Of a stretch of 64,000 bases of DNA, positions 21,127 through 45,170 are shown in pieces (the stretch's first letter is position 1; every line of letters begins with the position of its first letter). The notes beneath the pieces are model-generated. The model made no database searches. It was given only the letters and a program-made list of their open reading frames with translations, and was not told where the DNA came from. Source of the DNA: Ignavibacteriota bacterium. Lineage in GTDB: Bacteria; Bacteroidota; Ignavibacteria; UBA10030. The position numbers and the translations under genes were made by a program. The DNA is taken from assembly GCA_963727825.1 (NCBI GenBank), contig CAVSHO010000011.1, positions 151,854-215,853 of the forward strand, written 5' to 3'.

Positions 21127-24100
21127 TCATTTTTCCTCGAGGAGATTGTTCAATGCTTTTAAGCGAGATTCTACATTACGAGCATGGACATTATCAGGAT
21201 ACTGTTCATTGAGAGTCTGATAAGTGTTTCGGGCTTTTTCTCGCTCACCTGTCTGCTCGTACGATCTGCCCAACATATAGTACGCATCAGGTTTTTTATT
21301 TGACGAATTAATAGCAATAACTTTTTGGAAATGCTCTATCGCGTTATTATAATCACGGGTAGCATAATTGCATTCACCCATCCAATACTCACAATTACCG
21401 ACGAGAGATGTTTCAATTCCCATCTCAATTAGACTGTTAAATTTCACAAATGCCTCTTCGTACTTCTTCTCGCGGAACAGTGAAACTGCATCGGCATATT
21501 CTTCACGAAGCAAGGAATCACTATTTGCCTTCGATTCTGGCTGCGGCTCGGTCTCAGCTATTTCTTTATGAAGAGAAGTATCGATACCTTCATTCTGAGT
21601 TGGAATTGCTATCTGTTCCGTATATTCTTTGAGAATGGTGGAATCAGTTTTTTCTCTCTTCCCAGGCATAGAAATAATGAACTTTCTGACGGTATCTCTG
21701 GCTATGACTTTTGTCGTATCCATTTCTTGAACAGGTTTTGTAGTTTTTAACAGGCTTTCGCATACAATGACAAGGTCTTCAACTATATCCCCTTGCTTCG
21801 AGTGATGCACAGTAACAGGAAGCGGCCCGTTCTGCTGGATTGCTTGAAGAAATTTAAGTTGCTCGGGATCGACCGCAAGTGTGTAGCTCCCCGGCGCTAC
21901 AGCCATTGCGTAGAATCCCCCATCAGCAAATGTGCGAAGCGTATCGCCGAAATTTCCTTTGGTGGCACGCATAATTACTCGGCTTCCACTGAGTGGAGTA
22001 CGCATTCCATCCCTTTCTAAATAGACATTTCCAGAAATTGTCCCGGCGCGATAGAATGGGATTTCAATTCTCCTCATTTGATTCGGATCAACGACAAAAG
22101 AGAACTTATCGATTGTCGGCACTAAATTAGGATCGATCTGTTGTCTGTCGACCTCTAAATTGTAACGGAAGTAACTTTCCAGCTGCGTTACCCGGATAAT
22201 ACTGTCCCTACCAAGCTCGATCTTGCCCATTCCGTCTACTTTAATTCCGTTCGCGGGAATGAGCTCATCTCCGGCATCGTACTTACCGTTATAGTTGTTA
22301 TCGACAAACAATAATACATCAATGCCCCCTTTACCGATCTGTTCGCGATTTGATAGGAACGCCGTGCCGCGGTCAAGTGCCACTGAGCCATAAATTGATT
22401 GGCGGGAAGTACTGCTTTCATGTGAGAAGAAATCGAAGACCGAAGATGTTCGCGTAAAATTTAGGTCCATAATCAGGCCAGCCTCAAACGAAGTAGTGTG
22501 GATTGCAAAGTTGCGCTCATATCCCAGATTGAATTGGAAGATCTGCATAAATGTTTTAGAAAATTGGAGGCTCGCGTCCTGAAGGGTCCTGGCTTGCAAA
22601 TCGTATATTGCCTGGCCACGCAGGAGAAATGCCTGCAGGAAATTTGGAAGAAACGATGAGCGAGGCAGCGTGTACATAAGCGTTGTTGTGAAGAGACCGT
22701 TACCGGCTAAGTTCAATGGACTTACATCAGTGCCAACTGTTACTTCACTATAGCTCATCAGCAGCTGCATATTGGTAAACTGGGTTGAAAGATCGAATCG
22801 AGTTGACAAATGTTTTCCCGACACAGCATCCGTGTAGTCCTCGGAGATCCTGAATCCGGTGCCGGCAGAGATAAACGCGAGAGGCAAGGAGAGAGCCAGG
22901 CTTGCATTCTGCTGCGGCGATGTGCCGATAAGCGTATCATTCAATACATATTTTGCGTACGAGGCAAACACGCCGGCGTTGGAGGCAAATAAAGCATTCG
23001 CATTCAAGAGGTAATACGCATTCGGCGCTACATTGACATTGAAAATGTACTGGGAAAACAAGCGGGATGAAAATCCAAAATTATATATCGGTTTCTGGAG
23101 ACCGGTATTATCGCTGCGCTCGAGGCCGCCGTTGAGCGTTAGCCAGTTCGCAGCGCCATAGAGTAAATTTGCATTTCCATAATACGCATTATTCGTCGAT
23201 ACTGTATTATTATCCACTTTTCCTGCTTGTACATTGTAACTAAGAATCCCCTTTGGTACAAACGAGAATGGTATCTGAATTTGTTTCTCACTAACATTTA
23301 TATCACCATATTTGGAAAACGTTTTAACTGTAATTTTCTCTGTTCCGTACGTAAGCGGAAATTGAAATCGGTAGTAGCCCGCCGCGTTAGCTTTCTGAAA
23401 AGCAACCAGGCGGTCATTAAGGTACAATTCAACCTCGGACTGGGGATCGGTGAATCCATCAACGACATAATTATCAAACATTACACGAGGTTCGACGGGC
23501 TCATTTGATAAGGCAATGCCGTTGACTCTCGGAATAAAATTGCTGCCGGTCGTAATCTGACCTGCCGTGAACGAGCTAAAATAGTTATTCCCCCGTACAA
23601 CGTAACGCCAGTGGAGGTCGTCTACAGAAGCGGACTGCCCCGTTGTACCAATCAGGCTACCCTGAATATCCCCTCCAGCCACTTCACCCCCGCCAGTGAG
23701 CGTATAATTCGTTCCCTGTGACGAGAATTTGTCTAACGAAGTAGATATGTTGTAGTCTAGGACGGAGCCACCGAGGACTGAACGATCGAGAGCATAACGC
23801 AGCGGATATTTCACCGACGGGCCGAAGTCGCTTCCTACTTCCGAGCGTGCCAACGCTGCCTTCTTGCGAACGAGCGCAGGTAATTCCTTGGACGTCTCGC
23901 CGATAATCTGAAGACGGTTAATATTGACTGTGCTGCTGATACCAAAGATTTCTTCGAATTTTTCAGTAGATATGTAAATATCCATCTCCCCTTTGAACAT
24001 CTCTTCCAGCGTCAGTACATATACTTTATCTCCAAGGGAAATCTCATGCCTGACCGGATTGATTGTCATTGGTATTGCAGAGGAGATATATGTCCCTTTA

Positions 24101-24384
24101 ATGATATATTGTCCCTCGATGGTATAATACACTTCAAAGATATTAAACAATTCTATAATAGGAAGATAGATTTTGTCATTCTTAATTGCGACTGATATGT
24201 TATAGCTGCCCAATTCCTTGAGAGTGTACCCAAATATTACTTCATCATATTGGGAGGCTTGCTGCGATAGCGATTGGGATGGAACAAGAAAATAGAATAA
24301 AAAAAATATACTAAGCGTTAATAGCAGATTTCGCACAACGCCATTATGGTTTTTTGATGGGATGAACTCACATTCCAGCGACAC
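21127..24384 (-). CDS. large outer-membrane usher-like protein with CarboxypepD_reg-like and TPR (YbgF/CpoB-like) domains in its C-terminal part
   Basis: Signal peptide. An N-terminal region resembles usher N-domains, and the segment SEVELYLNDRLVAFQKANAAGYYRFQFPLTYGTEKITVKTFSKYGDINVSEKQIQIPF is usher-like. A long middle part is beta-strand rich and aromatic-terminated. GTISGNVYLERDG...GSYTLAVDP looks like CarboxypepD_reg. The C-terminus has TPRs (YWMGECNYATRDYNNAIEHFQKVI..AYYMLGRSYEQTGEREKARNTYQ). Confidence 0.45.
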   Translation of the reverse strand: MSLECEFIPSKNHNGVVRNLLLTLSIFFLFYFLVPSQSLSQQASQYDEVIFGYTLKELGSYNISVAIKNDKIYLPIIELFNIFEVYYTIEGQYIIKGTYISSAIPMTINPVRHEISLGDKVYVLTLEEMFKGEMDIYISTEKFEEIFGISSTVNINRLQIIGETSKELPALVRKKAALARSEVGSDFGPSVKYPLRYALDRSVLGGSVLDYNISTSLDKFSSQGTNYTLTGGGEVAGGDIQGSLIGTTGQSASVDDLHWRYVVRGNNYFSSFTAGQITTGSNFIPRVNGIALSNEPVEPRVMFDNYVVDGFTDPQSEVELYLNDRLVAFQKANAAGYYRFQFPLTYGTEKITVKTFSKYGDINVSEKQIQIPFSFVPKGILSYNVQAGKVDNNTVSTNNAYYGNANLLYGAANWLTLNGGLERSDNTGLQKPIYNFGFSSRLFSQYIFNVNVAPNAYYLLNANALFASNAGVFASYAKYVLNDTLIGTSPQQNASLALSLPLAFISAGTGFRISEDYTDAVSGKHLSTRFDLSTQFTNMQLLMSYSEVTVGTDVSPLNLAGNGLFTTTLMYTLPRSSFLPNFLQAFLLRGQAIYDLQARTLQDASLQFSKTFMQIFQFNLGYERNFAIHTTSFEAGLIMDLNFTRTSSVFDFFSHESSTSRQSIYGSVALDRGTAFLSNREQIGKGGIDVLLFVDNNYNGKYDAGDELIPANGIKVDGMGKIELGRDSIIRVTQLESYFRYNLEVDRQQIDPNLVPTIDKFSFVVDPNQMRRIEIPFYRAGTISGNVYLERDGMRTPLSGSRVIMRATKGNFGDTLRTFADGGFYAMAVAPGSYTLAVDPEQLKFLQAIQQNGPLPVTVHHSKQGDIVEDLVIVCESLLKTTKPVQEMDTTKVIARDTVRKFIISMPGKREKTDSTILKEYTEQIAIPTQNEGIDTSLHKEIAETEPQPESKANSDSLLREEYADAVSLFREKKYEEAFVKFNSLIEMGIETSLVGNCEYWMGECNYATRDYNNAIEHFQKVIAINSSNKKPDAYYMLGRSYEQTGEREKARNTYQTLNEQYPDNVHARNVESRLKALNNLLEEK

Positions 24385-24446
24385 TTTATTCCTAAAAAAA
24401 ACTTCCTCTTTGAGGGTGTTTTCATGTACCCTATAGCGTTGTTACC

Positions 24447-24526
24447 ATCCCGATTGTTTATAACAATCGGGATTTTTTAGATTTTTACTTAAAATCGATA
24501 AATAAGATTCCCGCTTACGCGGGAAT
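24447..24526. repeat. two REP-like hairpins between the chaperone-like and usher-like genes
   Basis: ATCCCGATTGTT-TAT-AACAATCGGGAT (24447-24473) and ATTCCCGC-TTAC-GCGGGAAT followed by GAC (24507-24526+). The same TCCCG..CGGGA family is seen at 2010, 2335, 4582, 20941 and other sites. Confidence 0.6.
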
Positions 24527-24641
24527 GACAATCTATCGGACAACCTTAAAAAGGAAAATGAATTGAAAATTTCTTTTTTTACAGATGAATCTGCTATATA
24601 ACAATAGTTACATGTACGTTCTGTTATGATGCCGCAATGGA

Positions 24642-25490
24642 TCATTGCAAATTCACGGCCACTTCTTTAGTCACAGGTTGGGCTTGCAACAAATCTTCCG
24701 TCGCAACATCCGACCGCTTGGTTTCAAATGTCAGAAGAAGTTTATACTTACCCTTTGCCACTTTTGAAAGGTCAAGGTCTATTTTGTTTTTCATGCGAAA
24801 ATAAATTGATGCTGTCGCCTCGGACAAAGCTACCTTTTCATTTGCAGCAGAAAACAATTCTGCCTTCATACTGCCGACGTAAGGCGCGTTGCCAGTACGC
24901 TCCACATCCGCAACAACAGTTAGCTTATTGTCCTTCAATGCTGTATTAACATCGTGTACGATCAGGCCGGTAGAGACATTCCCTTTCCTGTAGAAAACAG
25001 GAAATATCTGGTCAAACTTGAAATTGACTTGTGCCGTGATTGCATCGGTTACTTTTTTCCCGATGTCGGGCGTTTTCTGAGCCGACGTTACCTTAACTCT
25101 GGAAAAAAAGAAAGCATCCTTAACAGAACTCTTCGTGCGCACTTGCAACCTAACAGTTTGTTCTTGTTTAGCATTCAAAATAAAACTTCTTGGATAAGCA
25201 CGGACCATTGGATTTAGCGCGTACGTTTTTGCAGCAACCGTATCGTTGTAATTCATTACGGCATTGCCCATACTGTCAGCATCGGTATATCCAAATGCAA
25301 AGCTTATGCTCACTTCTTGAGGAGCTGCAGAATTGTTTGTGATATACATATTCCCGATCCCGCTCTTGGAATCAATAAAGAGAATCGAGGGCGCTACGGT
25401 TACCTGGGCAAAAAGCATTTCTGTCCCCAGGAATATTATGGGTATCAGGAAGACAAATAATCTGGAACTGCAACACGACAGGCGTTTCAT
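24642..25490 (-). CDS. PapD-like periplasmic pilus chaperone (putative)
   Basis: Signal peptide, then VTVAPSILFIDSKSGIGNMYITNNSAAPQEVSISF and PRSFILNAKQEQTVRLQVR, which match the two conserved strands of chaperone-usher chaperones. 282 aa. It lies directly downstream of the pilin gene. Confidence 0.5.
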   Translation of the reverse strand: MKRLSCCSSRLFVFLIPIIFLGTEMLFAQVTVAPSILFIDSKSGIGNMYITNNSAAPQEVSISFAFGYTDADSMGNAVMNYNDTVAAKTYALNPMVRAYPRSFILNAKQEQTVRLQVRTKSSVKDAFFFSRVKVTSAQKTPDIGKKVTDAITAQVNFKFDQIFPVFYRKGNVSTGLIVHDVNTALKDNKLTVVADVERTGNAPYVGSMKAELFSAANEKVALSEATASIYFRMKNKIDLDLSKVAKGKYKLLLTFETKRSDVATEDLLQAQPVTKEVAVNLQ

Positions 25491-25573
25491 TCTGATATTT
25501 TCCCCTTTCTTAAAGAATTTATAATCCTAGAGAGAACGTAAATGTCACTCATTCAGGAAATAAGCAACATAAT

Positions 25574-25602
25574 AACAAACAGAAAGCCCTGACGTAAGGG
25601 CT
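25574..25602 (-). terminator. hairpin plus T-rich tail after the major pilin gene (terminator/attenuator)
   Basis: On the minus strand: AGCCCT-TACGTC-AGGGCT then TTCTGTTTGTT, about 55 nt after the pilin stop and before the chaperone-like gene. Confidence 0.5.
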
Positions 25603-25656
25603 TCCTGTTTATAACATTCTAATAAAGCAATAACTAATGATAATTGCAACGATTTT

Positions 25657-26169
25657 CTATTTGTATTCGACTGAAAAAGTCGATGCGCCTGTGAATGCAC
25701 CCAGATCCGTACCTGTTGTCATGGTTCCTCCAACCCACAGAGAATAATTGTTACTACTCGGTACCACGTCAGCACCAGAACTCAATAAACTAGCGTTTGC
25801 TAGTGAACTAGGGTCACCATAAACAGTGAGTGCCAACGACAAGGTTTTTCCTCCTGGACCGTTGAGCGTAATAGGTGATTGCCAACTTACTAAAACATCT
25901 GTATTTGCTCCAGTGATTGTAACCGTGCCAGCGGCAGCTTGGGAACCTAAATATGCGTTATTGGTTGAAGTTTTGGGATCGAGAACAACCGACCTGCTTG
26001 CCGGAACGTTACCAAACGCTATGTCGGTTTTAGCAATCGATAAAGCTGATATAACAGTCGCATTAGCATTGACATTGGTACTAACATTAGTCTGTGCCTG
26101 CATATTGCCGGCGACTAAAATCACCAGAATTGCTACTAAAAGGGTGGATGTAAAAATATTGCGTAACAT
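25657..26169 (-). CDS. DUF4402/SCPU-like pilin (putative major subunit)
   Basis: Signal peptide LVAILVILVAGNMQAQ. ISALSIAKTDIAFGNV..., GTVTITGANTDVLVSW, YSLWVGGTM and the C-terminal GAFTGASTFSVEYK fit the DUF4402 / spore-coat-U pilin pattern. GGAGG lies 5 nt before the ATG at 26169. Confidence 0.6.
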   Translation of the reverse strand: MLRNIFTSTLLVAILVILVAGNMQAQTNVSTNVNANATVISALSIAKTDIAFGNVPASRSVVLDPKTSTNNAYLGSQAAAGTVTITGANTDVLVSWQSPITLNGPGGKTLSLALTVYGDPSSLANASLLSSGADVVPSSNNYSLWVGGTMTTGTDLGAFTGASTFSVEYK

Positions 26170-26251
26170 ATGTACCTCCATTAAATTATTTGTTTATTTA
26201 TTGTGTATTAATTTTGTTTATTGCTTCTATTAATTTCTTTCTTTACTTATC

Positions 26252-26266
26252 TCAATCTCCGTGCCA
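26252..26266 (-). promoter_or_regulatory. sigma54-type promoter TGGCAC-GGAGA-TTGA upstream of the pilin gene
   Basis: The reverse complement of TCAATCTCCGTGCCA has -24 GG and -12 spacing exactly as in the consensus TGGCAC-N5-TTGC, except A replaces C at the last position. The flanks are conserved with 44924-44938. Confidence 0.6.
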
Positions 26267-26338
26267 ACATAAATTCCCGCTTTTTTCAACGATTTTCAAG
26301 CATTTAAAAAACTATTATGTCCATAATGAGATTGCTGA

Positions 26339-26349
26339 CTCATATTGAG
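26339..26349. promoter_or_regulatory. palindrome CTCATATTGAG (proximal activator-site candidate); imperfect extra copy at 26321-26330
   Basis: It starts 78 nt from the -24 box, versus 77 nt for the equivalent site at the giant-gene promoter. Confidence 0.45.
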
Positions 26350-26412
26350 AATTTTGATATTTACTGTAAACACGCGATATTCTCAAAAAACCAATATTCT
26401 CAATATATTTCA

Positions 26413-26427
26413 GTATCATAATGATAC
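26413..26427. promoter_or_regulatory. perfect palindrome GTATCAT-A-ATGATAC (distal activator-site/UAS candidate)
   Basis: Identical 15-mer at 45084-45098. It starts 152 nt from the -24 box, versus 151 nt there. Confidence 0.55.
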
Positions 26428-26549
26428 ATAATTGTTATATACTTATTCTTATAATGGTATTTTACAATATTTTAAGGTTTTTAAAATACACATTTATTGA
26501 TCGATTAGCAAATGATGTTACAAACCATACTGTCTTTTCTTAGTGTCCG

Positions 26550-26666
26550 AAATATGGGGTAAGGATCACCGAAACAAGTGGCGCTGTACACCATGGCGCC
26601 AAAGGCGCTCATTCGGCATGACAATCTATAATACGACGCAAGCGGCGGGGTATTAAACCCGAAAAA
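26550..26666. repeat. GC-rich MITE/REP-like element, second copy
   Basis: It ends in the exact 23-mer GGCGGGGTATTAAACCCGAAAAA (26644-26666) and contains the hairpin GGCGCTGTACACCATGGCGCC and CATGACAATCTAT, as at 24527. Confidence 0.5.
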
Positions 26667-26808
26667 TAATGAAACCATTAACAAATATTGTTTTAGAAGA
26701 ATATACTATGGGACAGTTTCTTCGAAGTTCAGAGATTAAAAAGTCGAATTATCAAAAGGATTTTATAGCTATTTGTTGCTGGATTAATCTATAGAAGAAT
26801 GGGTCTTT

Positions 26809-27398
26809 TTACAAATACTCGAGAGTTATAATCGAGACAGGCAATTTACCATTATTACTTATTGTAGCTTTCTGATGATGGACTAAGAAAAATGTATACG
26901 CGACAAAAAGTGGGTCAATAGCTTTCATCGAGCGCTTTAAAAGATTATTATTTCTTAATCTAAATTGCACAAAATTTCCGTCTGTGATTATCGCCCGATT
27001 GAAATAAGTTGTCCCATCATTTAAATATCCGCAGTTAATTCGCATCGGATAGACACTCTGTTCATTCTTTTGAGACAATCCGGGCTTGTAAAACTCAGAA
27101 GAACAGTAATATTTTCATAAGCTGAGATAGAGAATCCAAAATCGAGGCTAACGATATCTTCATTACCAGGTTTTGCTGATGCCAATTCATTCAAATGTGT
27201 TATATCTTCTGCAAACAAAGTTCTCAAGTTATCATCCATCCTAGTAATATTTACAGATGGTAAAACATTTAGCTTGACCTTCATCAAAGGCGTTATTTGT
27301 GCCTGACTCTCTCCCGACAGCCCGACGATCAATGCCATTGCGACTACCGCAGTTCCGATTATGCGAGCATGGAAGCTATGCCATCTTTGATTCGTCAT
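26809..27398 (-). CDS. pilin-like secreted protein, split by one frameshift (27021-27078) in this assembly
   Basis: Two overlapping ORFs. Signal peptide IIGTAVVAMALIVGLSGESQAQ. The C-terminus ...GKLPVSIITLEYL resembles the neighbouring pilin C-termini. Probable start is MTNQRW at 27398. Confidence 0.45.
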
Positions 27399-27405
27399 AG
27401 CTATA

Positions 27406-28020
27406 TTATGGATATGTTGAGTAATTAACAGAGACACTTATTGTTCCAGTATAATATCCCGCATTCACATTGCCCACAGGCCCTAACTTTCCATACAGAA
27501 ATATATATGCCGTTGCAGAGGGAGCTGTATATCCACCGTGTGCAGGAGTTGGGGGCGGTGCAGGTACACCCGCAGTCCTTCGAAGCATCGGAAGTGTTAT
27601 TGCGGAAAATCCTGCAGGGACTTCAACAGCACTCGTCTTTGCCGTGGCCGCATCGCTACTTCCAAGATTTGAATAGGCGAAGTTACAGGTGAACGGTATC
27701 TGGCTGCTCGCTCCTGCAGTCATGTACATAGGAGCGGATATTGTTACCGTAATATCCCTCGTCGCATCACCTACAATTGTAATATACTGAGTTTCGTTGT
27801 CGGTCAATGTGATAGTGACTGTTGCACTGCTGTTGCTAACAATTTCCGGTTGCTTATCATTAAAGTTCAAAGTAGCACCATTACTTGCGACCAGAGAAAT
27901 GCCCACAGAAGTTGTATAGGCACCAAAATTTATTTTTTGTGCAACTCCAAAGCTGATCACAAACACACTCAATAGTATCAGCATTCCCCATCGTTTCAGT
28001 ATGTGTGTAAGCGAGATCAT
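27406..28020 (-). CDS. DUF4402/SCPU-like pilin subunit (204 aa)
   Basis: Signal peptide; LNFNDKQPEIV, TVTITL and C-terminal AGYYTGTISVSVNYSTYP (the G-x-Y-x-G-T-x-x-V-x-V-x-Y pilin tail). Confidence 0.5.
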   Translation of the reverse strand: MISLTHILKRWGMLILLSVFVISFGVAQKINFGAYTTSVGISLVASNGATLNFNDKQPEIVSNSSATVTITLTDNETQYITIVGDATRDITVTISAPMYMTAGASSQIPFTCNFAYSNLGSSDAATAKTSAVEVPAGFSAITLPMLRRTAGVPAPPPTPAHGGYTAPSATAYIFLYGKLGPVGNVNAGYYTGTISVSVNYSTYP

Positions 28021-28520
28021 AAAATGTACTCTACATCGATTTTCAGTTCCATTGTGTAATTACCGGGCATAATGTCTTCAAGGCCTGAAAGTTGTCCTCC
28101 CACCCACAGATAATACTCTCCCCTATCACTCAGCTTGACTTCATTCTGCGTGAGAAGGATCGATTCCTTCTGGATATTATAAGTATTTCCGCTGACATTG
28201 TAGGTGAAGAAAAGTTGCGATTGGCCGTTTTCGTGCCGCAGAATCGATTGTTTTTCATTTGTAATCCGCACGAGACTGTTCGGAGAGCCGACGATTTTTA
28301 TCATTCCAGAATGCAAGTCTCTTTGTGGGTCAATATTGAGATCTGTCGGCGAGAGATTGCCAACTTCAAATTCCAGGTCCTTCATCACAATCAGATCTAC
28401 ATTGCCAACAACATTTGCGGAGGCAGTGATCCTTGCCACAACCTGATCCGTATTTTGTGCTTCTGCAATGTACCCGATAAGCAAGCTGATCGCAAGTAAA
28501 TATGTCAAATATTTTATCAT
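28017..28520 (-). CDS. DUF4402/SCPU-like pilin subunit (167 aa)
   Basis: Signal peptide LLAISLLIGYIAEAQ; ITASANVVGNVDLIVMKDLEFEVGNL, YYLWVGGQL and C-terminal PGNYTMELKIDVEYIL. There is a 4-nt overlap with the giant gene stop. Confidence 0.55.
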   Translation of the reverse strand: MIKYLTYLLAISLLIGYIAEAQNTDQVVARITASANVVGNVDLIVMKDLEFEVGNLSPTDLNIDPQRDLHSGMIKIVGSPNSLVRITNEKQSILRHENGQSQLFFTYNVSGNTYNIQKESILLTQNEVKLSDRGEYYLWVGGQLSGLEDIMPGNYTMELKIDVEYIL

Positions 28521-31500
28521 TTAAGTACAACCATTTTTTTAGTTTGTGTTTTTTCTGCCGCGGTCATCCTGCAGAAATATACGCCGCTGGCAACATTTGA
28601 TGCATTCCACACCACGAGATGATTCCCGGCTGAGTATTCCTGATCAGTCACAGTGGCGACTTGCTGGCCCAGGATATTGAATACCCGGATCGTTACGCGC
28701 GTTTGTGCTGGAATTGAAAAAGTAATGTTCGTCGTCGGGTTAAACGGGTTCGGATAGTTCTGTGCCAGTTGAGGAGTAGTCGGAAAATATCCTGACAAAC
28801 TATTGTTTGCCGAGACAACCAGACGGAAACGGGACTCTGAAGCGCTGCTCTTCGCTAATTTGGCAGCGGGAACTGTCTGCACGACAGGCTGTGGTAATGC
28901 ATGTAATGATTGACGATTCGATGCAACACCAGATCCCTTTTGTAAAAGACTACTGCTCGACGATATCAAGTCGGCTGGTGTAGTGTACTGGAATGTCAGG
29001 TCGCCCGCTTCTATCATTGAGGCCGCTGTCCCGGAGACATCGTCCATAAGAAAGATGTTCCAGCCAACAGGAAGCTGTCCGTTCAAATTCCAACTAAGTG
29101 TAAATGAGCCGTTAAACGGTTGACCACCAACTGTCCCGCCAACGTACAACGGAAGTGTGAACGGTTGAACAAAACCTGTATCGGGTAAATTCTGGATTTG
29201 CATAGCGGGCTGGCCCGTTCCGGCAACAGAGTAAAGTATTAAATAATTATCAGAGAGCGGAACCAAACTGAACGCATCGTACGGATCGTATGTTATCTTT
29301 CCGCTGGGGCTGAACATCAAGTACGCTTGCGTTTGAAGCCCATTAGCTGAGAGCTCTAATTCGAGAACAGGCGCCGAATCATTGATACCCAAACTTTTCT
29401 TGTCGGATGTGTTTTTTGCAAGTGAGGCCGGCTTCGCGATGCTCGTGCTTTTCTTCCCGGCAGAATCCGGCGAGACAGATGCCAACGTGCCTTTACCTGC
29501 AGATTTCTTTCCGAGGAAGTTGCCCCCTGTCGCTTTCACTCTATTGTCGCATTTCAGTGAGGGACTGGCGGCGTTTGCTTTCACCCAGAATGCTTGAAAT
29601 GGTGTTATCAATCCACCTGTAATATTTCCCGTTGAGCCATTCCAATATTTGTAGTTGCTCGTGGCTGGATCCCAAATATAAATTGTTCCATCAATGTTCG
29701 TCTTTGTCCACCCTGACCCCGCATTCCAATTGATCGTGGAAGGAGTCGGGTTGCCGACCAGGTTCCAACCTCCATCGATAGAGTCGATATCTGTAAAAGT
29801 TTTGCTTTTTGATGTATCATTGGAACCTACCGGCGTCGCAGTGACGCCAAAATCGAATGCCGAGGTTAGCAGATTCTCCGTACCTGTGGCAGTCATCGTT
29901 AGCGGAAGGACATCGCTGTAATTGCTGGCTATATCAGGTCTGAGCGCACCATTAAATACATAGTACATGTATCCCCTTCCCAACTTAACGGCAACGGAAT
30001 CCATTCTCCACGCCTGCAACGATGTGCCCTGACTCGTTTCATCCCACCACAGCAGATTGGGTTGCAGAGAGGGATAACTCGATCCCGTAAAGCCCTGTGT
30101 GACGAAGGGTGCTGCAAACATTGAACTGACTGTTACGCTATCGGGAGCGGCGAGCATGCGCCATCCTTCGGTTCCGGTTATCGTGTACATCACCTGAAGT
30201 GTAGGTGCACTGCTGCTGAGGTTGATATAGTTCGATCCTTCATTGATAATTATTTTTCCTGCGGAAATAGAAGCGCCGGATTCGATTTTGAGATTTGAAC
30301 CGGAACCGATATATACATTGTTGGTCACACTAAAACTATTATTATTATCAAACGATCCACCATTGTCTACTATTAAACTCGTAATTGTTACACTGGTGTT
30401 TAAAGTGTCTGCAAAATTATTGCTGATATGTACCGTATCAATTGACATCGGCACCCTATAATTCCAGGTAGCAGCGTTACTCCAATCTCCGCTTGCAATT
30501 GAGGTAATTAGAAGAGGCATAATATTTATGCCACCTATTGTAAAGAAATGATTATCGAGGTTTACGAGTGTCGAAGTGGCAACCGTACCCGAAGTCTGTC
30601 CATTGTCAGTAACAACCTGACCGACAGCATTCCAAGGAATAAGCCATTCGACCACCCTTGTAAGAGCGCGTGTTGATGCCGAGCTGCTCATTCCTGTGTA
30701 TTGGTCCCAGCTTAAAACAACATTTGCGCTTCCACCTGATGGACCAATAATATTCCAATATTCATTATTCACAACTGATTGTAATGGAGATACCATCTGT
30801 GTAGTGTTATATCCAGCGGTTGTAGGATCCTTATCAAAAAATTGTGCCGTCCAAGTTTGTGTTCCTGAAGTAGAAGTGCTATTTACTGAAACATATCCAA
30901 TCCGGTTTCGGCTTGAGGAATTTGCATCTCCAACCGGAAATTGGAACGATGAGCCATTAATTATTTTCTTACTTAGCGGCCCGTTTACAAATGAATTATC
31001 GCTTCCACCAACAACAGCACTTGAACTTGTATTGGTAATAGTCAGGATATTGTTGGCAATGTTATTAAAATTAATGTTTCCCAATGTCAGCAGAAGCTGA
31101 TCGCTTATATCAACAGTTCCGGTATTAATAGTTAGTCCCGCAGCATTATTTATTTCGAGGTCATAGAATGTCTCTTTCATAGAATTACCAGACATCAAAA
31201 TACTTTGTGCTGCCGAACCGCTGAAATGCACAGCACCTGTTCCAGCAGTAAAGCCAGCAATACTCGTGTTTTGATCAATCCAGTTTCCAAGAACGAAAAG
31301 GTCTTTATTGTATAGAGTATTATCCAATCTGCTGCCATCAGAAATTGTTATGTTGCCATTTATCTTTGTATCAACGCTACTGATGTACTTTTTGCCGGTT
31401 CCTGAGAATATTACTTGTTGATAAGGTTTATTTATATTTCCCGGATTTAAAGGCATTGTGCCATCAGTGTTCCCATAAAACTCAACAGTACTTGGTAAGT

Positions 31501-34500
31501 TCGCAAGAAATAAATCGTACGATCCGCCTGGGAATATGAATATAGCACTGCCAGTAGGTGACATACGTATTTTTCCTGTACCTGATACCTGCCCGATATT
31601 ATTAGATACCGTATTCGTTGCATCGAGCACTCCTTCGATATCTACTGAAGATGCAAGCGCTCCATTAACGCTAATAGTTACAGTGTGGGGAGCATTTATA
31701 ACAACCGAGTGGCCATTTGGGACAAAGGAAGGAGACCAAACTGTTGCATCATTCCAATTTCCTGATTTTGTGCTATATAATATCGGTAATGAAATAAATT
31801 GATCTCCAATCGTATACGATCCATCTAAGAGCGAAGTGCTGCTAAAAGAAAATGTTGGAGAACTTATTGTTCCTGGTGTAACAGTTGTCCATGCGGCTGT
31901 AGAATTATCGCACCGTTCAATATTCGCAGGACTTCCAGTTACATCAGCGGGGATGTACGTGTACGAATGCGTTACATTATAAGTTGATGGCGAAAAGCCT
32001 GTTGTTACCACCTTCCAATAGTAATTCAAATAATTTGAATAGTTTGCAGGATTAATTGATGGGTGTAAATCATCTATTGGAATGACGTTTATGGTTGCTC
32101 CTGCCGCATTAGTATTGGCGGTAAAGTTATATGTGCAGGGAGTGTATTTTCCATTAGCACCTATAGGATAAGTAAACGATGAAGCGCCGTTCGGGAATAT
32201 CTTTGTAACTCCTATATCACCTAATACACCATTAAGAATAACATGGTTTGTTCCACTGGCACCTACAATTATAACGCTTTGCCCAAAAGTCAAAGAATAA
32301 TTATCGATGTATAAATTACCATTAGTAAACTTGAGCTGACCGTTAATCGTCGAATTGTCGGTCATATTAACGCCATGCCCGCTGTTGTTGATTTCAATGT
32401 TACCGAAAATTCCGCTTCCGCTGCCTGTCATCCCCTGGTTGGCTGTTCCCTTAAAAATCATTCCACCGCTTGTTGAAGAACTGTAGTGAGTAGCGTTGTT
32501 GTTAACATTATTCAATAAGGTTATTGTATTTCCATTGTCGTTCAACGTGCCGGAGCTTAATGTCAAATCACCGTTAATGGTGATATTGCTGCTGCTTAAT
32601 GATATGCTATGCCCGGCAGCAGTGGAGACATCCAAATTAGCGAAGTTAGTAATATTAGAAGGAGAAGTTGTGCCGGTTATGGTTTGGTCAGTGCTTCCTA
32701 CAAAACCGGTGGATTGCGTAAGCACCTGAGTTTGATAACCACCGACATTGAGTCCAACAGTAGATGTTGTATTGTTATTTATCAAATTCCCGCCGATAGT
32801 GACATTAAGTCCATTAGTATTATAATAACTTGATGTTCCACCGATAGTCAAACTTCCGACAAGAGTTAATGGATATATTTCCTGTATTGCCGATGATTTT
32901 GTCGTCGCTTCGAGTGTAAGGTTTCCTATAGAACATGAAGATTGGAAATAGAACAATGTACTAGCAGGTGTAACACCCGAATATCCAAACTGTATCGTGC
33001 CACCGGTGACATTTTCAATGTCGGGATCTAAATACAAATCATAAGGAGAGCTATTATTGATATCATTGGCAATTATGATCGTGCCATTGCTCACGGTAAA
33101 CTTGCTTCCGCCATTTAGTACTTCAAACACGGCTCTTGACGTACTAGCATTTTTACCACCTATGGTAACGGTCCCACCTGTTTGTGTATAATTCAATGAA
33201 CCAGAGGTGGTTCCTGTTCCGCGCCTTATTTGTGAATAGACATTGAGAGATCCGCCTGAGATAATAATTTCAGGAGTGCCTGCCGAAGCATAGACAGTAT
33301 TAAAAGCATTGGCAGATGCTGATGCTATAGCTGGGCCAATATTGACTGCTCCTGCAATTATTTCCAACCGGCCAACAAGAGATAAATCAGCTGCCGCAGC
33401 ACCAGTGGCTATATTAAATGTACCTCCATTCGCAGAAAGACATGCCGTGCTCGGTATTGAGAAACCGCCTACAGAAAGAGGCATTGTCACGTTTGAAGTT
33501 AATCTGAACGTCCCGTTCTGCAAATTAAGACCGCCACCGCCCATTTGAAAACCTGTAGGATCGACATTAACATTTAAGATAGAATCTTTTGATGTGCCTT
33601 TATTGACTGTTATGCCGTATAAGCGTGTTCGTGTCGGTGTAGAAGTACTGGTAAGAGATTTACTTAATGAACCTGTAAAAATAAGAGTACAATAATAATT
33701 ATCATTAGTCGGATAGTTCGAGTCTAAATCAAATGTTCCGTTATTAATTATGTTTCCATAAACTGTTAAAGTGTTTGCTACTGAATTACCACCATTTCTA
33801 ACTTGCAGCACTCCACCGGACGCAATGTTAATATCGTTATCGGCAATTACGTACTCGGCAAGATTGTTCTGGTATTGTAATATTCCGTACTGATTTATAT
33901 TGATATTACCTTTTACTTCTATAGTTGTTGAGCTTGCACCGGCGTTAATCTGCGTTATGCAATTTGATGTGCCGCCCCCGGATGAACATCCCGCTGTCAA
34001 ATTATTATAAATCGTCAAGTTTGAATTAGGCAAAATTATATTCGATGCATTATAAGGTGAAGTAATAAGATTATAGTACCCGGTAATATTCGCTGTACCT
34101 CCACCGGGCAAAGTATACGTTGTCGGTAATGTAAGTGTCCCTGCGGCAGCCTGATAATATTCCACCGTCCCACCGGAAGGTCCTAAGAAATTTCCCCAGT
34201 CGCCAGCAGGGAAATATGTTGAGCTGGCAATTCTCAATGTTCCACTACCCGTAGAAATTGAGCCGAAACTATGTCCATTTATAATTCCTAAATCGAGTGT
34301 TGAACCGGATTCAATAGTTAAGCTGCTTGAAGAAGCTGCTACTGGAGTTGTAACTGTGTAAGGACTGCAAATGATTACCAGAGTACCAGCGGTAGGTGTG
34401 CCACCACCACCAATGCCGCCTCTTGTTGTGGACCAAGTATTAGCATTATTCCAAGGACCACTCACAACACTATATAAAGTAGGGATGGCACCAAATGCTG

Positions 34501-43500: not shown

Positions 43501-43741
43501 CCGTAATCGCCTGAAGCCGCTGTTTTTGTGCCTGAGCCCTTGAATGGTAAGATTTCCATAGGTCGATGGACCGGCACTTGTAACGTTTCCAGCAACATTT
43601 TGTCCATTGTGATCGTAGAATTATAATATTACCGTTGAAGTAGCGACTAAAGTAATATGAGCAGTAGTATAAAGTTTGTTGGGAACGAAGTTCTTGTTGC
43701 GGTGCCTGCGCCGATCTGCAAGGTAGCTCCGTTGGCAACAC
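28517..43741 (-). CDS. giant T/G/N-rich beta-helix-type surface adhesin with T9SS C-terminal sorting domain (main body, 5074 aa ORF; first ~75 aa are out-of-frame noise)
   Basis: Thousands of residues of G-x-T/N-x-T beta-strand repeats (e.g. [24 protein letters not shown]). Module-start motif SG(D/N/P)W(N/S)xxxxW recurs at least 5 times. The C-terminus [38 protein letters not shown]...GVYFCRMTA...KKMVVLK is a classic Por_Secre_tail-type CTD. Confidence 0.85.
   Translation of the reverse strand: [5074 protein letters not shown]
38226..38470. repeat. internal direct repeat, copy 1 (partner 38937-39181; period 711 nt = 237 aa)
   Basis: ATAATTAGTATTAATAACTGT.TGTGTACCTGCATATCCGTAATTAACTGTATTTCCA... 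recurs with only a few mismatches. The protein motif [40 protein letters not shown] is repeated. Confidence 0.75.
41970..42304. repeat. internal near-identical direct repeat, copy 1 (partner 43176-43510; period 1206 nt)
   Basis: Over 41991-42304 versus 43197-43510 I count about 4 mismatches in 314 nt. Identity drops abruptly to about 75% with indels beyond 42304/43510. Confidence 0.8.
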
Positions 43742-44547
43742 CCAAAGTTCCTGTTGCGTTTCCAGTTATCTGAGAATCCGCCATCGGCAAGTGTGCCGTT
43801 GAGCACCGATAAATTATTACTCACCGTTGTTGCCGCGCTTAATGTGACACCAGCGCTGTTGTTGATCGTAAGATTAAGTGGTGTAGTTGATGTTAATCCA
43901 TTTCCGGTTACTTGGGCTGCTGTACCATTGTAAATGTAATTTGCTCCTGCAGTATATGTTCTTGTAGTAGTCTGAATATTACCTGTAGCTCCTGCTGTTG
44001 AAATACCGGCTGTTGAACCAACTTGAAGTGTAGCGGTTGCTGCATTGATAAACACACCAGCGCCACTTATAATCCCGGCTGGTGGCATAACAAGTGTACC
44101 ATTGTTAGTAAAAGTATTTGCAGCATTTCCTTCCGTAACAGTTCCATTGACAGTCCCTGTAGCTGTCGCTGCGAGTGTAATATTCGGCCTAGTACCATTT
44201 GTGTTATTCAATGTGAAGGTCTTTGAAGCAGCTACACTGAATGTTGTGCTGATAGTAATAGTATTCCCATTTGCAGAAGCTGCAAAAGTACAGGTTCCGT
44301 TAATAGTCAGACTATTTAAAGTTATCGTTGGTACTGCTGTAATATTGCCCGTTTGATCGGCGGGAATAATTACATCATCACCCGTAGTTGGTACCGTGCC
44401 ACCCCAATTGGCCGCTGTAGTCCATGCACCGCCTGTTGTCGGACTCCAGGTTCTAGTTGCTGCCATTACCGTTGCGCCAATGAACACAACCATCACCAAC
44501 AGAACGTTCAGTGCATGCGATATATGATATTTCTTTTTCATTACCAA
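43621..44547 (-). CDS. N-terminal fragment (signal peptide plus first module) of the same giant adhesin, separated by a multi-indel zone
   Basis: [27 protein letters not shown] signal, then [32 protein letters not shown] (the same module-start motif). The last ~50 aa are frame-garbled relative to the homologous repeat at ~42450-42650. Confidence 0.75.
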   Translation of the reverse strand: [308 protein letters not shown]

Positions 44548-45098: not shown

Positions 45099-45170
45099 AT
45101 GGCTGTAGCGTTTAGTATTTTGATTTGGCATTTTCTACATAATTATTAGCAATTTTTATAAAAAATATGC

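What the first reader, a model, noticed from the sequence alone, without database searches (positions are those of the whole stretch)
21127..28520. Archaic (sigma/Csu-like) chaperone-usher-type pilus locus built from DUF4402/SCPU-like subunits in a T9SS-bearing FCB-type genome
Four, and probably five, small secreted proteins end in the pilin-type tail G-x-(Y/F)-x-G-x-x-x-(V/I)-x-V-x-Y: GAFTGASTFSVEYK, AGYYTGTISVSVNY, PGNYTMELKIDVEY, and PVSIITLEYL in the frameshifted one. They also carry the N-terminal ..L.FG.. strand typical of DUF4402 / spore-coat-U pilins. The locus also includes a 282-aa protein with PapD-like chaperone strands and a 1085-aa usher-like outer-membrane protein. Archaic chaperone-usher systems are characterised mainly in Proteobacteria (the Acinetobacter Csu pili). 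A DUF4402-based version in this lineage, physically and regulatorily coupled to a T9SS cargo, is to my knowledge uncharacterised.
Basis: partly seen in the sequence, partly recalled or inferred. Interest (0 to 1): 0.72.

Follow-up and report, generated by a model that had tools for sequence, protein, structure and literature searches.

The report
Chaperone-usher pilus coupled to T9SS adhesin
A seven-gene cassette conserved across Bacteroidota-type bacteria joins a very divergent chaperone-usher fibre-assembly machine to a giant adhesin exported by a different route (type IX secretion), and I found no paper that describes this pairing.

Summary
On the minus strand lie four small secreted proteins (g1-g4; g3 is split by a 1-nt indel), a 282-aa protein and a 1085-aa outer-membrane protein. 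The 1085-aa family is a true but very distant usher homologue (hhalign 97.4% to E. coli ushers, 96.4% to Csu-type ushers). The 282-aa protein folds as a two-domain PapD-like chaperone. g4, g1 and g2 are DUF4402 proteins remotely homologous to SCPU (Csu-type) pilins.

It is not a member of the archaic (sigma) clade. The usher and chaperone lie outside both the sigma and classical groups. The invariant cysteine pair of archaic pilins is absent. There is no CsuE-like tip adhesin.

The main finding is the coupling. In 30 of 30 genome loci found through the chaperone, and 53 of 68 metagenome loci found through the cargo, the order is T9SS cargo, g1, g2, g3, g4, chaperone, usher. The cargo always carries a conserved ~540-aa module of unknown fold before its T9SS sorting domain.

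Best reading: a new chaperone-usher variant whose fibre works together with a type IX-secreted adhesin. How the two join is inferred, not shown. Culturable Algoriphagus relatives make it testable.

The parts
44924..44938 (-). sigma54-like -24/-12 motif (TGGCACGTAGATTGA), 383 nt upstream of the cargo start codon; possible operon promoter
   Evidence: Pattern TGGCAY-N5-TTGM occurs 4 times in the window against 0.45 expected. Position relative to ATG 44541 is. Function is inferred.
28517..44541 (-). Giant T9SS cargo (about 5340 aa if the frame breaks at 43560-43773 are repaired): signal peptide, long variable repeat region, conserved C-terminal module, T9SS sorting domain
   Evidence: ORF 28517-43741. 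True N-terminus MKKKYHISHALNVLLVMVVFIGATVMAA lies at 44541 in another frame. Por_Secre_tail PF18962 scores E 2e-13, 50.8 bits against a cut-off of 27.
28760..30376 (-). Conserved ~540-aa cargo module of unknown fold. It is the only part of the cargo, apart from the sorting domain, shared by all orthologous loci.
   Evidence: 61% identity to the Kryptonia cargo and 35% to the Cognataquiflexum cargo, while the N-terminal parts differ. About 80 invariant columns in 28 sequences. No Pfam or PDB match. 1323 relatives at E<=1e-10, always near the C-terminus of 500-3700-aa proteins.
28520..28759 (-). T9SS C-terminal sorting domain (type A CTD)
   Evidence: PF18962 matches in 28 of 28 orthologues. Weak match to the solved CTD 8glj_D.
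28017..28520 (-). g1, DUF4402-type minor pilin-like protein (167 aa). Its start overlaps the cargo stop by 4 nt.
   Evidence: DUF4402 E 3.3e-5, 25.0 bits against a cut-off of 25.2. The g1 family versus the g4 family gives hhalign 99.2%, E 6e-20. The same 4-nt overlap is present in L001.
27406..28020 (-). g2, DUF4402-type pilin-like protein (204 aa) with a Pro-rich loop and a 4-residue tail after the C-terminal motif. Likely the cargo-specific adaptor.
   Evidence: DUF4402 E 1.3e-3. g2 versus g4 gives hhalign 96.9%, E 1.4e-10. Orphan cargo+g2 pairs occur in L056, L059, L060 and L015.
26809..27398 (-). g3, fourth small secreted protein, split by a 1-nt indel at 27080-27084. It has a pilin-type tail, but homology to the other three is not significant.
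   Evidence: The intact 192-aa orthologue in L001 spans both ORFs. hhalign to g1/g2/g4 gives only 13-27%. g3 was not detected in some loci, for example L018 and L043.
26252..26266 (-). sigma54-like -24/-12 motif (TGGCACGGAGATTGA), about 70-85 nt upstream of g4, inside a 627-nt intergenic gap
   Evidence: The same motif sits 80-88 nt upstream of the g4 ORF start in the nearest relatives L011, L013, L049 and L052, but not in Algoriphagus-type loci.
25657..26181 (-). g4, DUF4402 pilin, probable major fibre subunit (174 aa)
   Evidence: 6 of the 11 other homologues carry PF14352, and 32 of 34 orthologues hit DUF4402. hhalign to SCPU pilins 94.9%, E 4e-8, full length. Foldseek top hits are CU pilins but weak. 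It has its own long upstream region, a hairpin behind it, and is duplicated in L011/L049.
25575..25612 (-). 16-bp stem-loop directly after g4; possible partial terminator that sets the excess of major subunit
   Evidence: Function is inferred by analogy with pilus operons.
24642..25490 (-). PapD-like periplasmic chaperone (282 aa)
   Evidence: AF2 model pLDDT 85.6 with two beta-sandwich domains. Most of the 50 best Foldseek PDB hits are CU chaperones, E 1e-8 to 2e-6. hhalign to 11 classical and sigma chaperones: 92.5%, E 4.8e-7, 226 columns. P100 is invariant at a D-strand kink.
21127..24384 (-). Usher-like outer-membrane protein (1085 aa) with a C-terminal periplasmic YbgF/CpoB-type TPR domain (aa ~955-1085, nt 21127-21522)
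   Evidence: hhalign to E. coli ushers: 97.4%, E 1.4e-11, 529 columns covering FimD 181-797. hhalign to sigma ushers: 96.4%, E 1.2e-9. Pfam Usher is sub-threshold here (E 9e-4), and 10 of 40 homologues hit it. TPR: TIGR02795 E 6e-23, 6g5s CpoB E 4e-10.
45167..47407 (+). Histidine kinase and sigma54-dependent NtrC-type response regulator, divergent from the cargo operon; candidate regulators
   Evidence: NCBIfam matches. The link to the sigma54-like motifs is inferred.

Best explanation
This is a deeply divergent chaperone-usher (CU) system that forms one functional unit with a type IX-secreted giant adhesin.

Shown or strongly supported:
- The 1085-aa protein is a usher homologue (barrel, plug and first C-terminal domain) with an added periplasmic TPR domain.
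- The 282-aa protein is a PapD-like two-domain chaperone.
- g4, g1 and g2 are DUF4402 proteins homologous to SCPU pilins, and they carry the C-terminal Gly...Tyr strand motif of pilins.
- The gene order cargo-g1-g2-g3-g4-chaperone-usher is conserved from Ignavibacteria/Kryptonia-type MAGs to Cyclobacteriaceae and Saprospiraceae.

Inferred:
- The Sec-exported pilins are capped in the periplasm by the chaperone's G1 strand and polymerised at the usher by donor-strand exchange.
- g4 is the major subunit. It has its own sigma54-type promoter, a hairpin behind it, and is duplicated in relatives.
- g1-g3 are low-copy tip or adaptor subunits. They are packed tightly behind the cargo gene, with 4-nt start/stop overlaps at cargo/g1 and g1/g2.
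- The adhesin crosses the outer membrane separately through the T9SS, directed by its sorting domain.
- The adhesin is then held on the fibre through its conserved ~540-aa module, most likely via g2. This would take the place of the missing CsuE/FimH-type tip adhesin.
For: Usher:
- hhalign 97.4%, E 1.4e-11 over 529 columns to E. coli ushers.
- hhalign 96.4%, E 1.2e-9 to Csu-type ushers.
- 10 of 40 homologues hit Pfam Usher.

Chaperone:
- AF2 model pLDDT 85.6. Foldseek hits are dominated by EcpB, CfaA, SafB, Caf1M, CsuC, FimC and PapD.
- hhalign 92.5%, E 4.8e-7 over both domains.
- Invariant P100 splits strand 96-99/102-105. This matches the one proline invariant across CU chaperones (PMC4654587).
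- The disordered 139-158 loop precedes a G1-like strand, VNFKFDQIFPVFYR.
- JGI names several relatives 'P pilus assembly chaperone PapD', and NCBI names one 'fimbrial biogenesis chaperone'.

Pilins:
- 32 of 34 g4 orthologues hit DUF4402.
- g4 versus SCPU: 94.9%, E 4e-8, full length.
- g1 and g2 are homologous to g4.
- The tail motif is found only in these genes in the window.
- The best structural matches of the g4 model are CU pilins.

Coupling:
- 30 of 30 genome loci with enough upstream DNA have the cargo module directly upstream.
- Of 68 metagenome loci found through the cargo module, 47 have g1 directly downstream, 3 have g2 directly downstream, and 3 have pilus genes nearby.
- The 4-nt cargo/g1 overlap is conserved.
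- The cargo N-terminal parts vary from 723 to more than 5000 aa, while the C-terminal module is conserved.
- Orphan cargo+g2 pairs exist.

Precedent: Mfa5, a T9SS-targeted tip protein of type V fimbriae (PMC7835359).
Against: - No direct evidence of a fibre, of donor-strand exchange, or of any contact between cargo and pilins.
- The pilin model is poor (pLDDT 66.6). Its Foldseek hits are weak (E 8e-3 and worse, TM 0.3-0.5). The incomplete-Ig / donor-strand test is therefore open.
- g3 is not significantly similar to the other pilins.
- The cargo module shows no similarity to pilins or to any known fold family.
- 15 of 68 cargo-side loci have no pilus gene in the available flank.
- Single-family chaperone comparisons are not significant on their own (52% and 9.7%).
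- In this window g3 and the cargo are frame-broken.
- No T9SS machinery gene lies in the window.
Confidence: 0.6

Rival explanations
1. It is an ordinary archaic (sigma, Csu-type) chaperone-usher pilus that merely sits next to a T9SS adhesin gene. The two are co-regulated adhesins with independent assembly and no physical link.
For: The pilins are closest to SCPU pilins rather than to classical pilins. Archaic systems are known outside Proteobacteria (PMC4654587). Adhesin genes often cluster.
Against: The usher and chaperone are outgroups to both sigma and classical families (45, 77, 83). The Cys pair is absent. There is no CsuE-like adhesin. The adjacency holds in 30 of 30 and 53 of 68 loci across classes. 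The start/stop overlap is conserved, and a cargo module dedicated to this context is conserved.
Confidence: 0.15
2. The CU-like genes do not build a long fibre. Instead they form a short outer-membrane anchor or attachment complex for the T9SS cargo. g1-g4 act as single-copy adaptors and the usher-like barrel, tied to the cell wall by its TPR/SPOR/OmpA module, acts as the anchor. This would be functionally analogous to PorP/SprF-type or PorE-type T9SS accessory proteins.
For: There are four distinct, individually conserved subunit families, each as a single gene. The usher family carries wall-associated C-terminal modules (TPR, SPOR, OmpA) unknown in classical ushers. The cargo module is dedicated to this context.
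Against: g4 has the hallmarks of a major polymerising subunit: its own promoter region, a hairpin behind it, duplication in relatives, and a conserved N-terminal Ala/Val/Leu strand. Usher, chaperone and SCPU-like pilins normally make polymers.
Confidence: 0.15
3. The system assembles a surface coat or sheath rather than pili, as proposed for the spore coat protein U chaperone-usher-like systems of Myxococcus xanthus (own knowledge, not checked here).
For: DUF4402 is remotely related to spore-coat-U domains. Nothing in the sequence fixes the shape of the polymer.
Against: The host lineages (Algoriphagus, Ignavibacteria-type) are not known spore formers (own knowledge). The obligate link to a giant repeat adhesin points to adhesion.
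Confidence: 0.05
4. In this particular genome the locus is a decaying, non-functional remnant, because g3 and the cargo are frameshifted.
For: A 1-nt indel in g3 and several frame changes in the first cargo repeat.
Against: An unrelated housekeeping-type gene (LarA-like, 49520-50275) is frame-broken too, and the g3 break lies in a CCCGG run. That fits assembly indel errors. All other locus genes are intact and conserved. Orthologous loci are intact.
Confidence: 0.1

Closest known systems
Archaic (sigma) chaperone-usher pili: Csu of Acinetobacter baumannii, CupE of Pseudomonas aeruginosa
   Same: Small pilins with an N-terminal strand, an 'LxFG' strand and a C-terminal G-x-Y...Y/F strand. DUF4402 versus SCPU gives hhalign 94.9%. 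Several distinct pilin genes sit with one chaperone and one usher. The chaperone has the invariant D-strand proline. At low alignment confidence, an invariant Arg (R131) falls on the CsuC Arg89 position (PMC4654587).
   Different: No Pfam SCPU hit in 34 orthologues. No invariant Cys pair. The usher and chaperone are far outside the sigma family (against 82, 83). There is no CsuE-type two-domain adhesin after the usher. The usher carries a C-terminal TPR, SPOR or OmpA module. A T9SS cargo gene heads the operon. The host phylum has not been reported for sigma systems (PMC4654587 lists Proteobacteria, Cyanobacteria and Deinococcus-Thermus).
Classical chaperone-usher pili (type 1 / P pili; FimC-FimD, PapD-PapC)
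   Same: Usher homology is as strong as to the sigma family (97.4%, E 1.4e-11). The chaperone fold matches FimC, PapD and Caf1M. A stem-loop follows the putative major subunit gene.
   Different: The pilins are not detectably related to classical pilins (9%). The chaperone A1 strand, VTVAPSILFID, has no arginine where PapD's Arg8 lies (Arg8/Lys112 from own knowledge). The adhesin is not a usher substrate by sequence.
Mfa5 of Porphyromonas gingivalis type V (Mfa1) fimbriae
   Same: An adhesin-like fimbrial tip protein that carries a T9SS sorting domain while the rest of the fimbria uses another export route (PMC7835359). This is the only precedent I found for a T9SS cargo joining a pilus.
   Different: Type V pilins are lipoprotein precursors polymerised after proteolysis, without a chaperone or usher. 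Here the subunits have SPase I-type 'AQ' sites, no lipobox cysteine, and a usher and chaperone are present.
Myxococcus xanthus Mcu spore-coat-U chaperone-usher-like systems (own knowledge)
   Same: A CU-like system with SCPU-type subunits in a non-enteric lineage.
   Different: No sporulation context, different subunit family, and coupling to a T9SS cargo.

Membership tests
Chaperone-usher pathway (superfamily level) | Outer-membrane usher homologous to PF00577 (barrel with plug, C-terminal domains) | tested here: met
   hhalign of 40 family members against 6 E. coli ushers: 97.4%, E 1.4e-11, 529 columns, FimD 181-797. Against 5 sigma ushers: 96.4%. Pfam Usher is below cut-off in the window protein (18.7 against 27.1 bits), and 10 of 40 relatives hit it. 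No structure model was made.
Chaperone-usher pathway (superfamily level) | Periplasmic two-domain PapD-like chaperone | tested here: met
   AF2 pLDDT 85.6. Foldseek PDB hits are dominated by CU chaperones, E 1e-8 to 2e-6, TM 0.35-0.59. hhalign to 11 CU chaperones: 92.5%, E 4.8e-7, both domains. The single protein has no Pfam PapD hit. 9 of 31 relatives hit PapD_N weakly.
Chaperone-usher pathway (superfamily level) | Invariant proline kinking strand D1 of the chaperone (PMC4654587) | tested here: met
   P100 is invariant in 31 sequences. It lies between strands 96-99 and 102-105 of the model. It aligns with the TPP/SPP proline of FimC and CsuC.
Chaperone-usher pathway (superfamily level) | Pilins with an incomplete Ig fold (no G strand) plus an N-terminal donor strand | tested here: inconclusive
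   The g4 model reaches only pLDDT 66.6. Residues 25-53 (N-terminal extension) are below 50. Foldseek hits are CU pilins but at E 8e-3 to 0.2. A conserved N-terminal A-S-A-x-V-L-x-x-L-T-I strand is present.
Chaperone-usher pathway (superfamily level) | Conserved C-terminal pilin strand (Gly about 14 from the end, Tyr near the end) | tested here: met
   g1, g2 and g4 carry it. It is found nowhere else in 270 ORFs, against 0.02 expected. It is conserved in the family alignments.
Chaperone-usher pathway (superfamily level) | Polymerisation by donor-strand exchange at the usher | not testable with these tools
   Needs co-folding or experiment.
Archaic (sigma) clade, Csu/CupE type | Subunits belong to Pfam SCPU (PF05229) | tested here: not met
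   0 of 34 g4 orthologues hit SCPU at E<=1, while 32 of 34 hit DUF4402. Only remote profile-profile homology to SCPU is seen (94.9%).
Archaic (sigma) clade, Csu/CupE type | Invariant cysteine pair in the pilin domain (Cys16-Cys62 of CsuA/B; PMC4654587) | tested here: not met
   Both Cys are invariant in 11 sigma pilins. Most mature g1-g4 sequences have no Cys: 32/33, 27/35, 19/25 and 34/40.
Archaic (sigma) clade, Csu/CupE type | Usher and chaperone group with sigma ushers and chaperones | tested here: not met
   Usher: E 1.2e-9 to sigma and 1.4e-11 to classical, while sigma to classical is 1.8e-40. Chaperone: 9.7% to sigma and 52% to classical, while sigma to classical is 97.4%. No phylogeny was made, and the reference alignments are small (5-6 sequences).
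Archaic (sigma) clade, Csu/CupE type | F1-strand arginine that anchors the subunit carboxylate (CsuC Arg89) | tested here: inconclusive
   Invariant R131 is placed on the CsuC 'YR' arginine, but in an alignment of only 9.7% probability.
Archaic (sigma) clade, Csu/CupE type | Two-domain tip adhesin with an SCPU pilin domain encoded after the usher | tested here: not met
   All five sigma operons fetched have one. Here the genes after the usher are three unrelated paralogues, and in relatives unrelated genes.
Pfam DUF4402 (PF14352) | Score at or above the gathering cut-off (25.2 bits) | tested here: inconclusive
   Window g1 scores 25.0 bits, g2 19.8, and g4 and g3 have no hit. 32 of 34 g4 orthologues match (best E 1.7e-14). 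6 of the 11 other g4 homologues carry the precomputed domain.
T9SS cargo (type A sorting domain) | C-terminal Por_Secre_tail domain (PF18962) and N-terminal signal peptide | tested here: met
   50.8 bits against a cut-off of 27, and 28 of 28 orthologues match. A signal-peptide-like N-terminus lies at 44541.
T9SS cargo (type A sorting domain) | T9SS machinery present in the same genome | not testable with these tools
   No T9SS component was seen among the window genes scanned. The rest of the genome is not available.
Type V (FimA/Mfa) pili of Bacteroidota | Lipoprotein pilin precursors (lipobox Cys), no usher or chaperone | tested here: not met
   The signal peptides end in 'AQ' with no cysteine. 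A usher and a chaperone are present.

The most novel reading that the evidence does not exclude
Two outer-membrane export systems build one appendage. The chaperone-usher machine extrudes a DUF4402 stalk. The giant adhesin arrives separately through the T9SS and is joined to the stalk on the cell surface. The conserved ~540-aa pre-CTD module would serve as the docking site for a dedicated pilin, with g2 the best candidate. The join might use strand complementation outside the cell. This would be a new class of hybrid surface organelle and a new way of anchoring T9SS cargo.
Probability: 0.35. Interest if true: 0.85.

Novelty: new variant of a known kind. Interest (0 to 1): 0.72.

Why it matters
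- Chaperone-usher pili are textbook organelles of Proteobacteria. Bacteroidota are thought to rely on type V pili and on T9SS-anchored adhesins.
- This cassette shows a third arrangement. It is a very deep-branching usher/chaperone/pilin set in Bacteroidota-type lineages that is almost never found without a T9SS adhesin carrying a dedicated module.
- If the two systems cooperate physically, that would reveal a new way of anchoring T9SS cargo. It would also show how giant adhesins are held away from the cell.
- It would extend the known range of the donor-strand assembly principle.
- It would give functions to DUF4402 and to a module found in more than a thousand large proteins (1323 relatives at E<=1e-10).
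- The system occurs in culturable strains (Algoriphagus spp., Cognataquiflexum, Aquiflexum, Mariniradius saccharolyticus AK6), so it can be tested directly.

Tried and rejected
- Sequence searches of the 282-aa protein and of its family profile against PDB found nothing relevant.
- The usher family profile against PDB sequences found no usher. Homology appeared only with profile-profile comparison.
- The g4 profile against PDB sequences found nothing. The g4 profile against the single CsuA/B sequence aligned only the C-terminal strand, at 0.2%.
- I suspected a pilin-like domain in the cargo module, because 'LYVGGTV...FNGSFTLSWNL' resembles the pilin tail. hhalign to g1-g4 gave below 1%, so I rejected this.
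- The cargo module has no Pfam or PDB match apart from the sorting domain.
- The three tandem paralogues downstream of the usher are not part of the system. They have no homologue in any related locus and no similarity to the pilins.
- Rfam found only tRNAs. Nothing was found in the 627-nt gap before g4.
- The generic sigma70 scan was no better than shuffles (38 against 31).
- Literature searches for DUF4402, archaic CU plus Bacteroidetes, CU plus T9SS plus Bacteroidota, and usher/PapD plus Bacteroidota found no description of this system.
The usher, the cargo module and all complexes remain unmodelled.

Full report
**1. What is there**

On the minus strand the window carries the following, in transcription order:
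- a giant ORF (28517-43741), whose real start is ATG 44541 in another frame;
- g1 (28017-28520, 167 aa);
- g2 (27406-28020, 204 aa);
- g3 (26809-27398, split into 138-aa and 89-aa ORFs);
- a 627-nt gap;
- g4 (25657-26181, 174 aa);
- a 282-aa ORF (24642-25490);
- a 1085-aa ORF (21127-24384).

Further points:
- A relaxed form of the tail motif occurs in the last 25 residues of only three of the 270 ORFs of the window. All three are in this locus, against 0.02 expected.
- Each small protein, the chaperone and the usher begins with a hydrophobic leader. In g1-g4 and the chaperone the leader ends in 'AQ'.
- There are four pilin-like genes, not five.

**2. The frameshift**

- The Kryptonia orthologue of g3 is one intact 192-aa protein that covers both window ORFs.
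- The break is a single-base indel in a CCCGG run at 27080-27084.
- The 5' part of the cargo gene changes frame several times between 43560 and 43773.
- An unrelated LarA-like gene at 49520-50275 is also broken.
- I therefore read these breaks as assembly indel errors rather than gene decay. Only the reads can settle this.

**3. The usher**

- Alone, the 1085-aa protein gives only a sub-threshold Pfam Usher hit (E 9e-4). It also has a CarboxypepD_reg-like stretch and a clear C-terminal YbgF/CpoB-type TPR domain.
- Its family of 94 relatives extends to Algoriphagus, Fodinibius and Balneola. Members carry TPR, SPOR, OmpA or nothing at the C-terminus.
- A profile of 40 members did not find ushers in PDB by HMM search.
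- Profile-profile comparison did find them. Against six E. coli ushers fetched from K-12 it gives 97.4%, E 1.4e-11, 529 columns, spanning FimD 181-797. By my recollection of the FimD domain limits, that is barrel, plug and first C-terminal domain.
- Against five sigma-type ushers, including CsuD, it gives 96.4%, E 1.2e-9.
- As calibration, sigma against classical ushers gives 100%, E 1.8e-40.
- The protein is therefore a genuine usher homologue, but it lies outside both known groups.

**4. The chaperone**

- Sequence searches alone fail. 9 of 31 relatives touch PapD_N weakly.
- An AF2 model built on 31 sequences (pLDDT 85.6) has two beta-sandwich domains.
- Most of the 50 best Foldseek matches in PDB are chaperone-usher chaperones: EcpB, CfaA, SafB, Caf1M, CsuC, FimC, YadV, DraB and PapD. 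E-values run from 1e-8 to 2e-6, and TM-scores are modest at 0.35-0.59. The Gram-positive WxLIP ranks first.
- P100 is invariant and sits between two short strands of the model. This matches the one proline that is invariant in the whole CU chaperone superfamily and kinks strand D1 (PMC4654587).
- Residues 139-158 are low-confidence. They precede a strand with alternating hydrophobic residues that ends in FYR, like an F1-G1 loop and a G1 donor strand.
- Profile-profile scores against classical or sigma chaperones separately are weak (52% and 9.7%).
- Against both sets combined the score is 92.5%, E 4.8e-7, over 226 columns and both domains.
- Sigma against classical chaperones gives 97.4%, so this chaperone is again an outgroup.
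- JGI and NCBI pipelines already label some relatives as PapD-like or as 'fimbrial biogenesis chaperone'.

**5. The pilins**

- g4 has only 11 other homologues in the word-indexed search, 6 of them with PF14352.
- Among 34 orthologues collected from related loci, 32 hit DUF4402 and none hits SCPU.
- g1 and g2 are homologous to g4 (99.2% and 96.9%). g3 is only weakly similar.
- I verified the CsuA/B sequence against PDB 7zl4. I used it to fetch five sigma operons from plasmids and aligned 11 SCPU pilins.
- DUF4402 against SCPU gives 94.9%, E 4e-8 over the full length. 'IAFG' pairs with 'LDFG', and the G-x-Y-x-G/D-T tail pairs with its counterpart.
- DUF4402 against classical pilins gives 9%. 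SCPU against classical gives 96.5%.
- The pilins are therefore nearest to the archaic type. They lack the Cys pair that is invariant in archaic pilins.
- The g4 model is poor (pLDDT 66.6; N-terminal residues 25-53 below 50).
- Its best structural matches are nearly all CU pilins (Caf1, CfaB, PapA, CsuA/B, FimA), but at E 8e-3 to 0.2.
- The decisive donor-strand test is thus open.

**6. The coupling to the T9SS cargo**

- The cargo ends in a Por_Secre_tail domain.
- Its last ~620 residues are 61% identical to the 723-aa cargo of a Kryptonia MAG and 35% identical to the 1246-aa cargo of Cognataquiflexum. The N-terminal parts are unrelated in length.
- Searching genomes with the chaperone gave 38 loci. 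They come from Algoriphagus, Cognataquiflexum, Aquiflexum, Mariniradius, Saprospiraceae, Ignavibacteria-type MAGs and peat 'Bacteroidota' MAGs.
- All 30 loci with enough upstream DNA show the order cargo module, g1, g2, (g3), g4, chaperone, usher.
- Searching metagenomes from the other side, with the cargo module, gave 80 loci. Of the 68 with at least 0.7 kb downstream:
  - 47 have g1 directly downstream;
  - 3 have g2 directly downstream;
  - 3 have pilus genes nearby;
  - 15 have none.
- Some loci hold tandem cargo paralogues, and some hold orphan cargo+g2 pairs.
- The cargo stop and the g1 start overlap by 4 nt here and in the Kryptonia locus.
- The module has about 80 invariant positions in 28 sequences and no Pfam or PDB relative.
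- It has 1323 relatives at E<=1e-10 among 1.84 billion representatives. They always lie near the C-terminus of proteins of 500-3700 aa.
- It is not detectably pilin-like.

**7. Regulation and stoichiometry (inferred)**

- A sigma54-type motif (TGGCACGGAGATTGA) lies about 70-85 nt upstream of g4. It is conserved 80-88 nt upstream of the g4 ORF start in the nearest relatives.
- A second copy lies 383 nt upstream of the cargo ATG.
- A histidine kinase and a sigma54-dependent NtrC-type regulator are encoded divergently at 45167-47407.
- A 16-bp hairpin follows g4, and a shorter one follows the chaperone gene.
- g4 is duplicated in the closest relatives.
- Together this fits g4 as the abundant major subunit. 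g1-g3 would then be low-copy subunits made together with the cargo.

**8. Mechanism proposed**

Shown:
- homology of the usher, chaperone and pilins to CU components;
- a T9SS sorting domain on the cargo;
- conserved synteny.

Inferred:
- Periplasmic capping of the pilins by the chaperone.
- Donor-strand exchange at the usher, giving a g4 fibre with g1-g3 at its tip or as adaptors.
- Separate export of the adhesin by the T9SS.
- Attachment of the adhesin to the fibre through its conserved module, most likely via g2. This would replace the missing CsuE/FimH-type adhesin.
- The TPR, SPOR or OmpA module of the usher may tie the platform to the cell wall.

Mfa5 of P. gingivalis, a T9SS-targeted tip protein of type V fimbriae, is the closest precedent for such cooperation (PMC7835359).

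**9. Comparison with the known, and novelty**

- The system works like a chaperone-usher pathway. It meets the superfamily-level tests that could be run.
- It fails four of the five defining tests of the archaic (sigma) clade and is inconclusive on the fifth:
  - SCPU membership: failed;
  - Cys pair: failed;
  - clustering of usher and chaperone with the sigma family: failed;
  - CsuE-type adhesin: failed;
  - the CsuC Arg89 position: inconclusive.
- Published distributions of archaic systems list Proteobacteria, Cyanobacteria and Deinococcus-Thermus (PMC4654587; PMC9452303).
- No paper in the library mentions DUF4402 or this combination.
- I rate it a new variant of a known kind. The new elements are the obligate T9SS cargo with a dedicated module and the modular usher C-terminus.

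**10. Limits**

- No fibre, interface or expression data exist.
- The reference alignments used for calibration are small (5-12 sequences).
- The pilin model is weak.
- The usher, the cargo module and all complexes were not modelled.
- Taxonomic labels of some MAG contigs (Limnohabitans, Reyranella, Planctomycetota) are probably binning errors.

Noticed in passing
window 18434-18838, 19390-19851, 20090-20548 (minus strand): Three tandem paralogues of a 134-153-aa secreted protein lie just downstream of the usher. The repeat unit is 300 nt at 89-94% identity. They have no homologue in about 118 related loci, no Pfam or NCBIfam match, and no similarity to the pilins.
   Followed up: partly
window 26252-26266 (-), 44924-44938 (-), 19234 (+), 45171 (+): Four sigma54-like -24/-12 motifs (TGGCAY-N5-TTGA) against 0.45 expected. 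One lies upstream of g4 (conserved in the nearest relatives) and one upstream of the cargo. The two plus-strand copies share the sequence TGGCATATAGATTGA. One of those sits at the annotated start of the histidine kinase gene, the other between the tandem paralogues.
   Followed up: partly
window 45167-45979 and 46028-47407 (+): A histidine kinase and a sigma54-dependent NtrC/AtoC-type response regulator are divergent from the cargo operon. They are candidate regulators of the locus.
   Followed up: no
window 27080-27084; 43560-43773; 49138-50600: Frame breaks in three unrelated genes: g3, the first cargo repeat, and a LarA-like nickel-dependent epimerase. They suggest indel errors typical of a long-read assembly rather than pseudogenes.
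   Followed up: partly
window 21127-21522, and homologues P0138, P0141, P0154, P0174, P0201, P0202, P0209: The usher-like family swaps its C-terminal periplasmic module: a YbgF/CpoB-type TPR here, SPOR or OmpA domains in other members, and none in the ~880-aa Algoriphagus forms. Classical ushers have no such wall-associated module.
   Followed up: partly
L056, L059, L060, L015; L099, L110, L114, L118, L123: Some genomes carry orphan 'cargo + g2' gene pairs without the rest of the cassette. Others carry two or three cargo paralogues in tandem ahead of one pilus gene set. This hints that g2 is the cargo-specific partner.
   Followed up: partly
window g1-g4 and chaperone N-termini; family alignments: The secreted proteins g1-g4 and the chaperone have signal peptides ending in 'AQ' (the usher's ends in 'SQQ'), so the mature N-termini would start with Gln. 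In Bacteroidota such Gln residues are often cyclised to pyroglutamate (own knowledge). That would block the N-terminus of the putative donor strands.
   Followed up: no
L011 6538-8141; L049 4653-6256: The closest relatives (peat MAGs) have two tandem g4 copies, each with its own sigma54-like motif. The window has one g4.
   Followed up: no
window 25575-25612 and 24507-24526 (-): Stem-loops lie directly after g4 (16 bp) and after the chaperone gene (8 bp). They may be attenuators that set subunit ratios.
   Followed up: no
window 4625-4680 (+): A 56-nt tRNA-like match scores just above the Rfam gathering score (32 bits). It may be a truncated tRNA.
   Followed up: no
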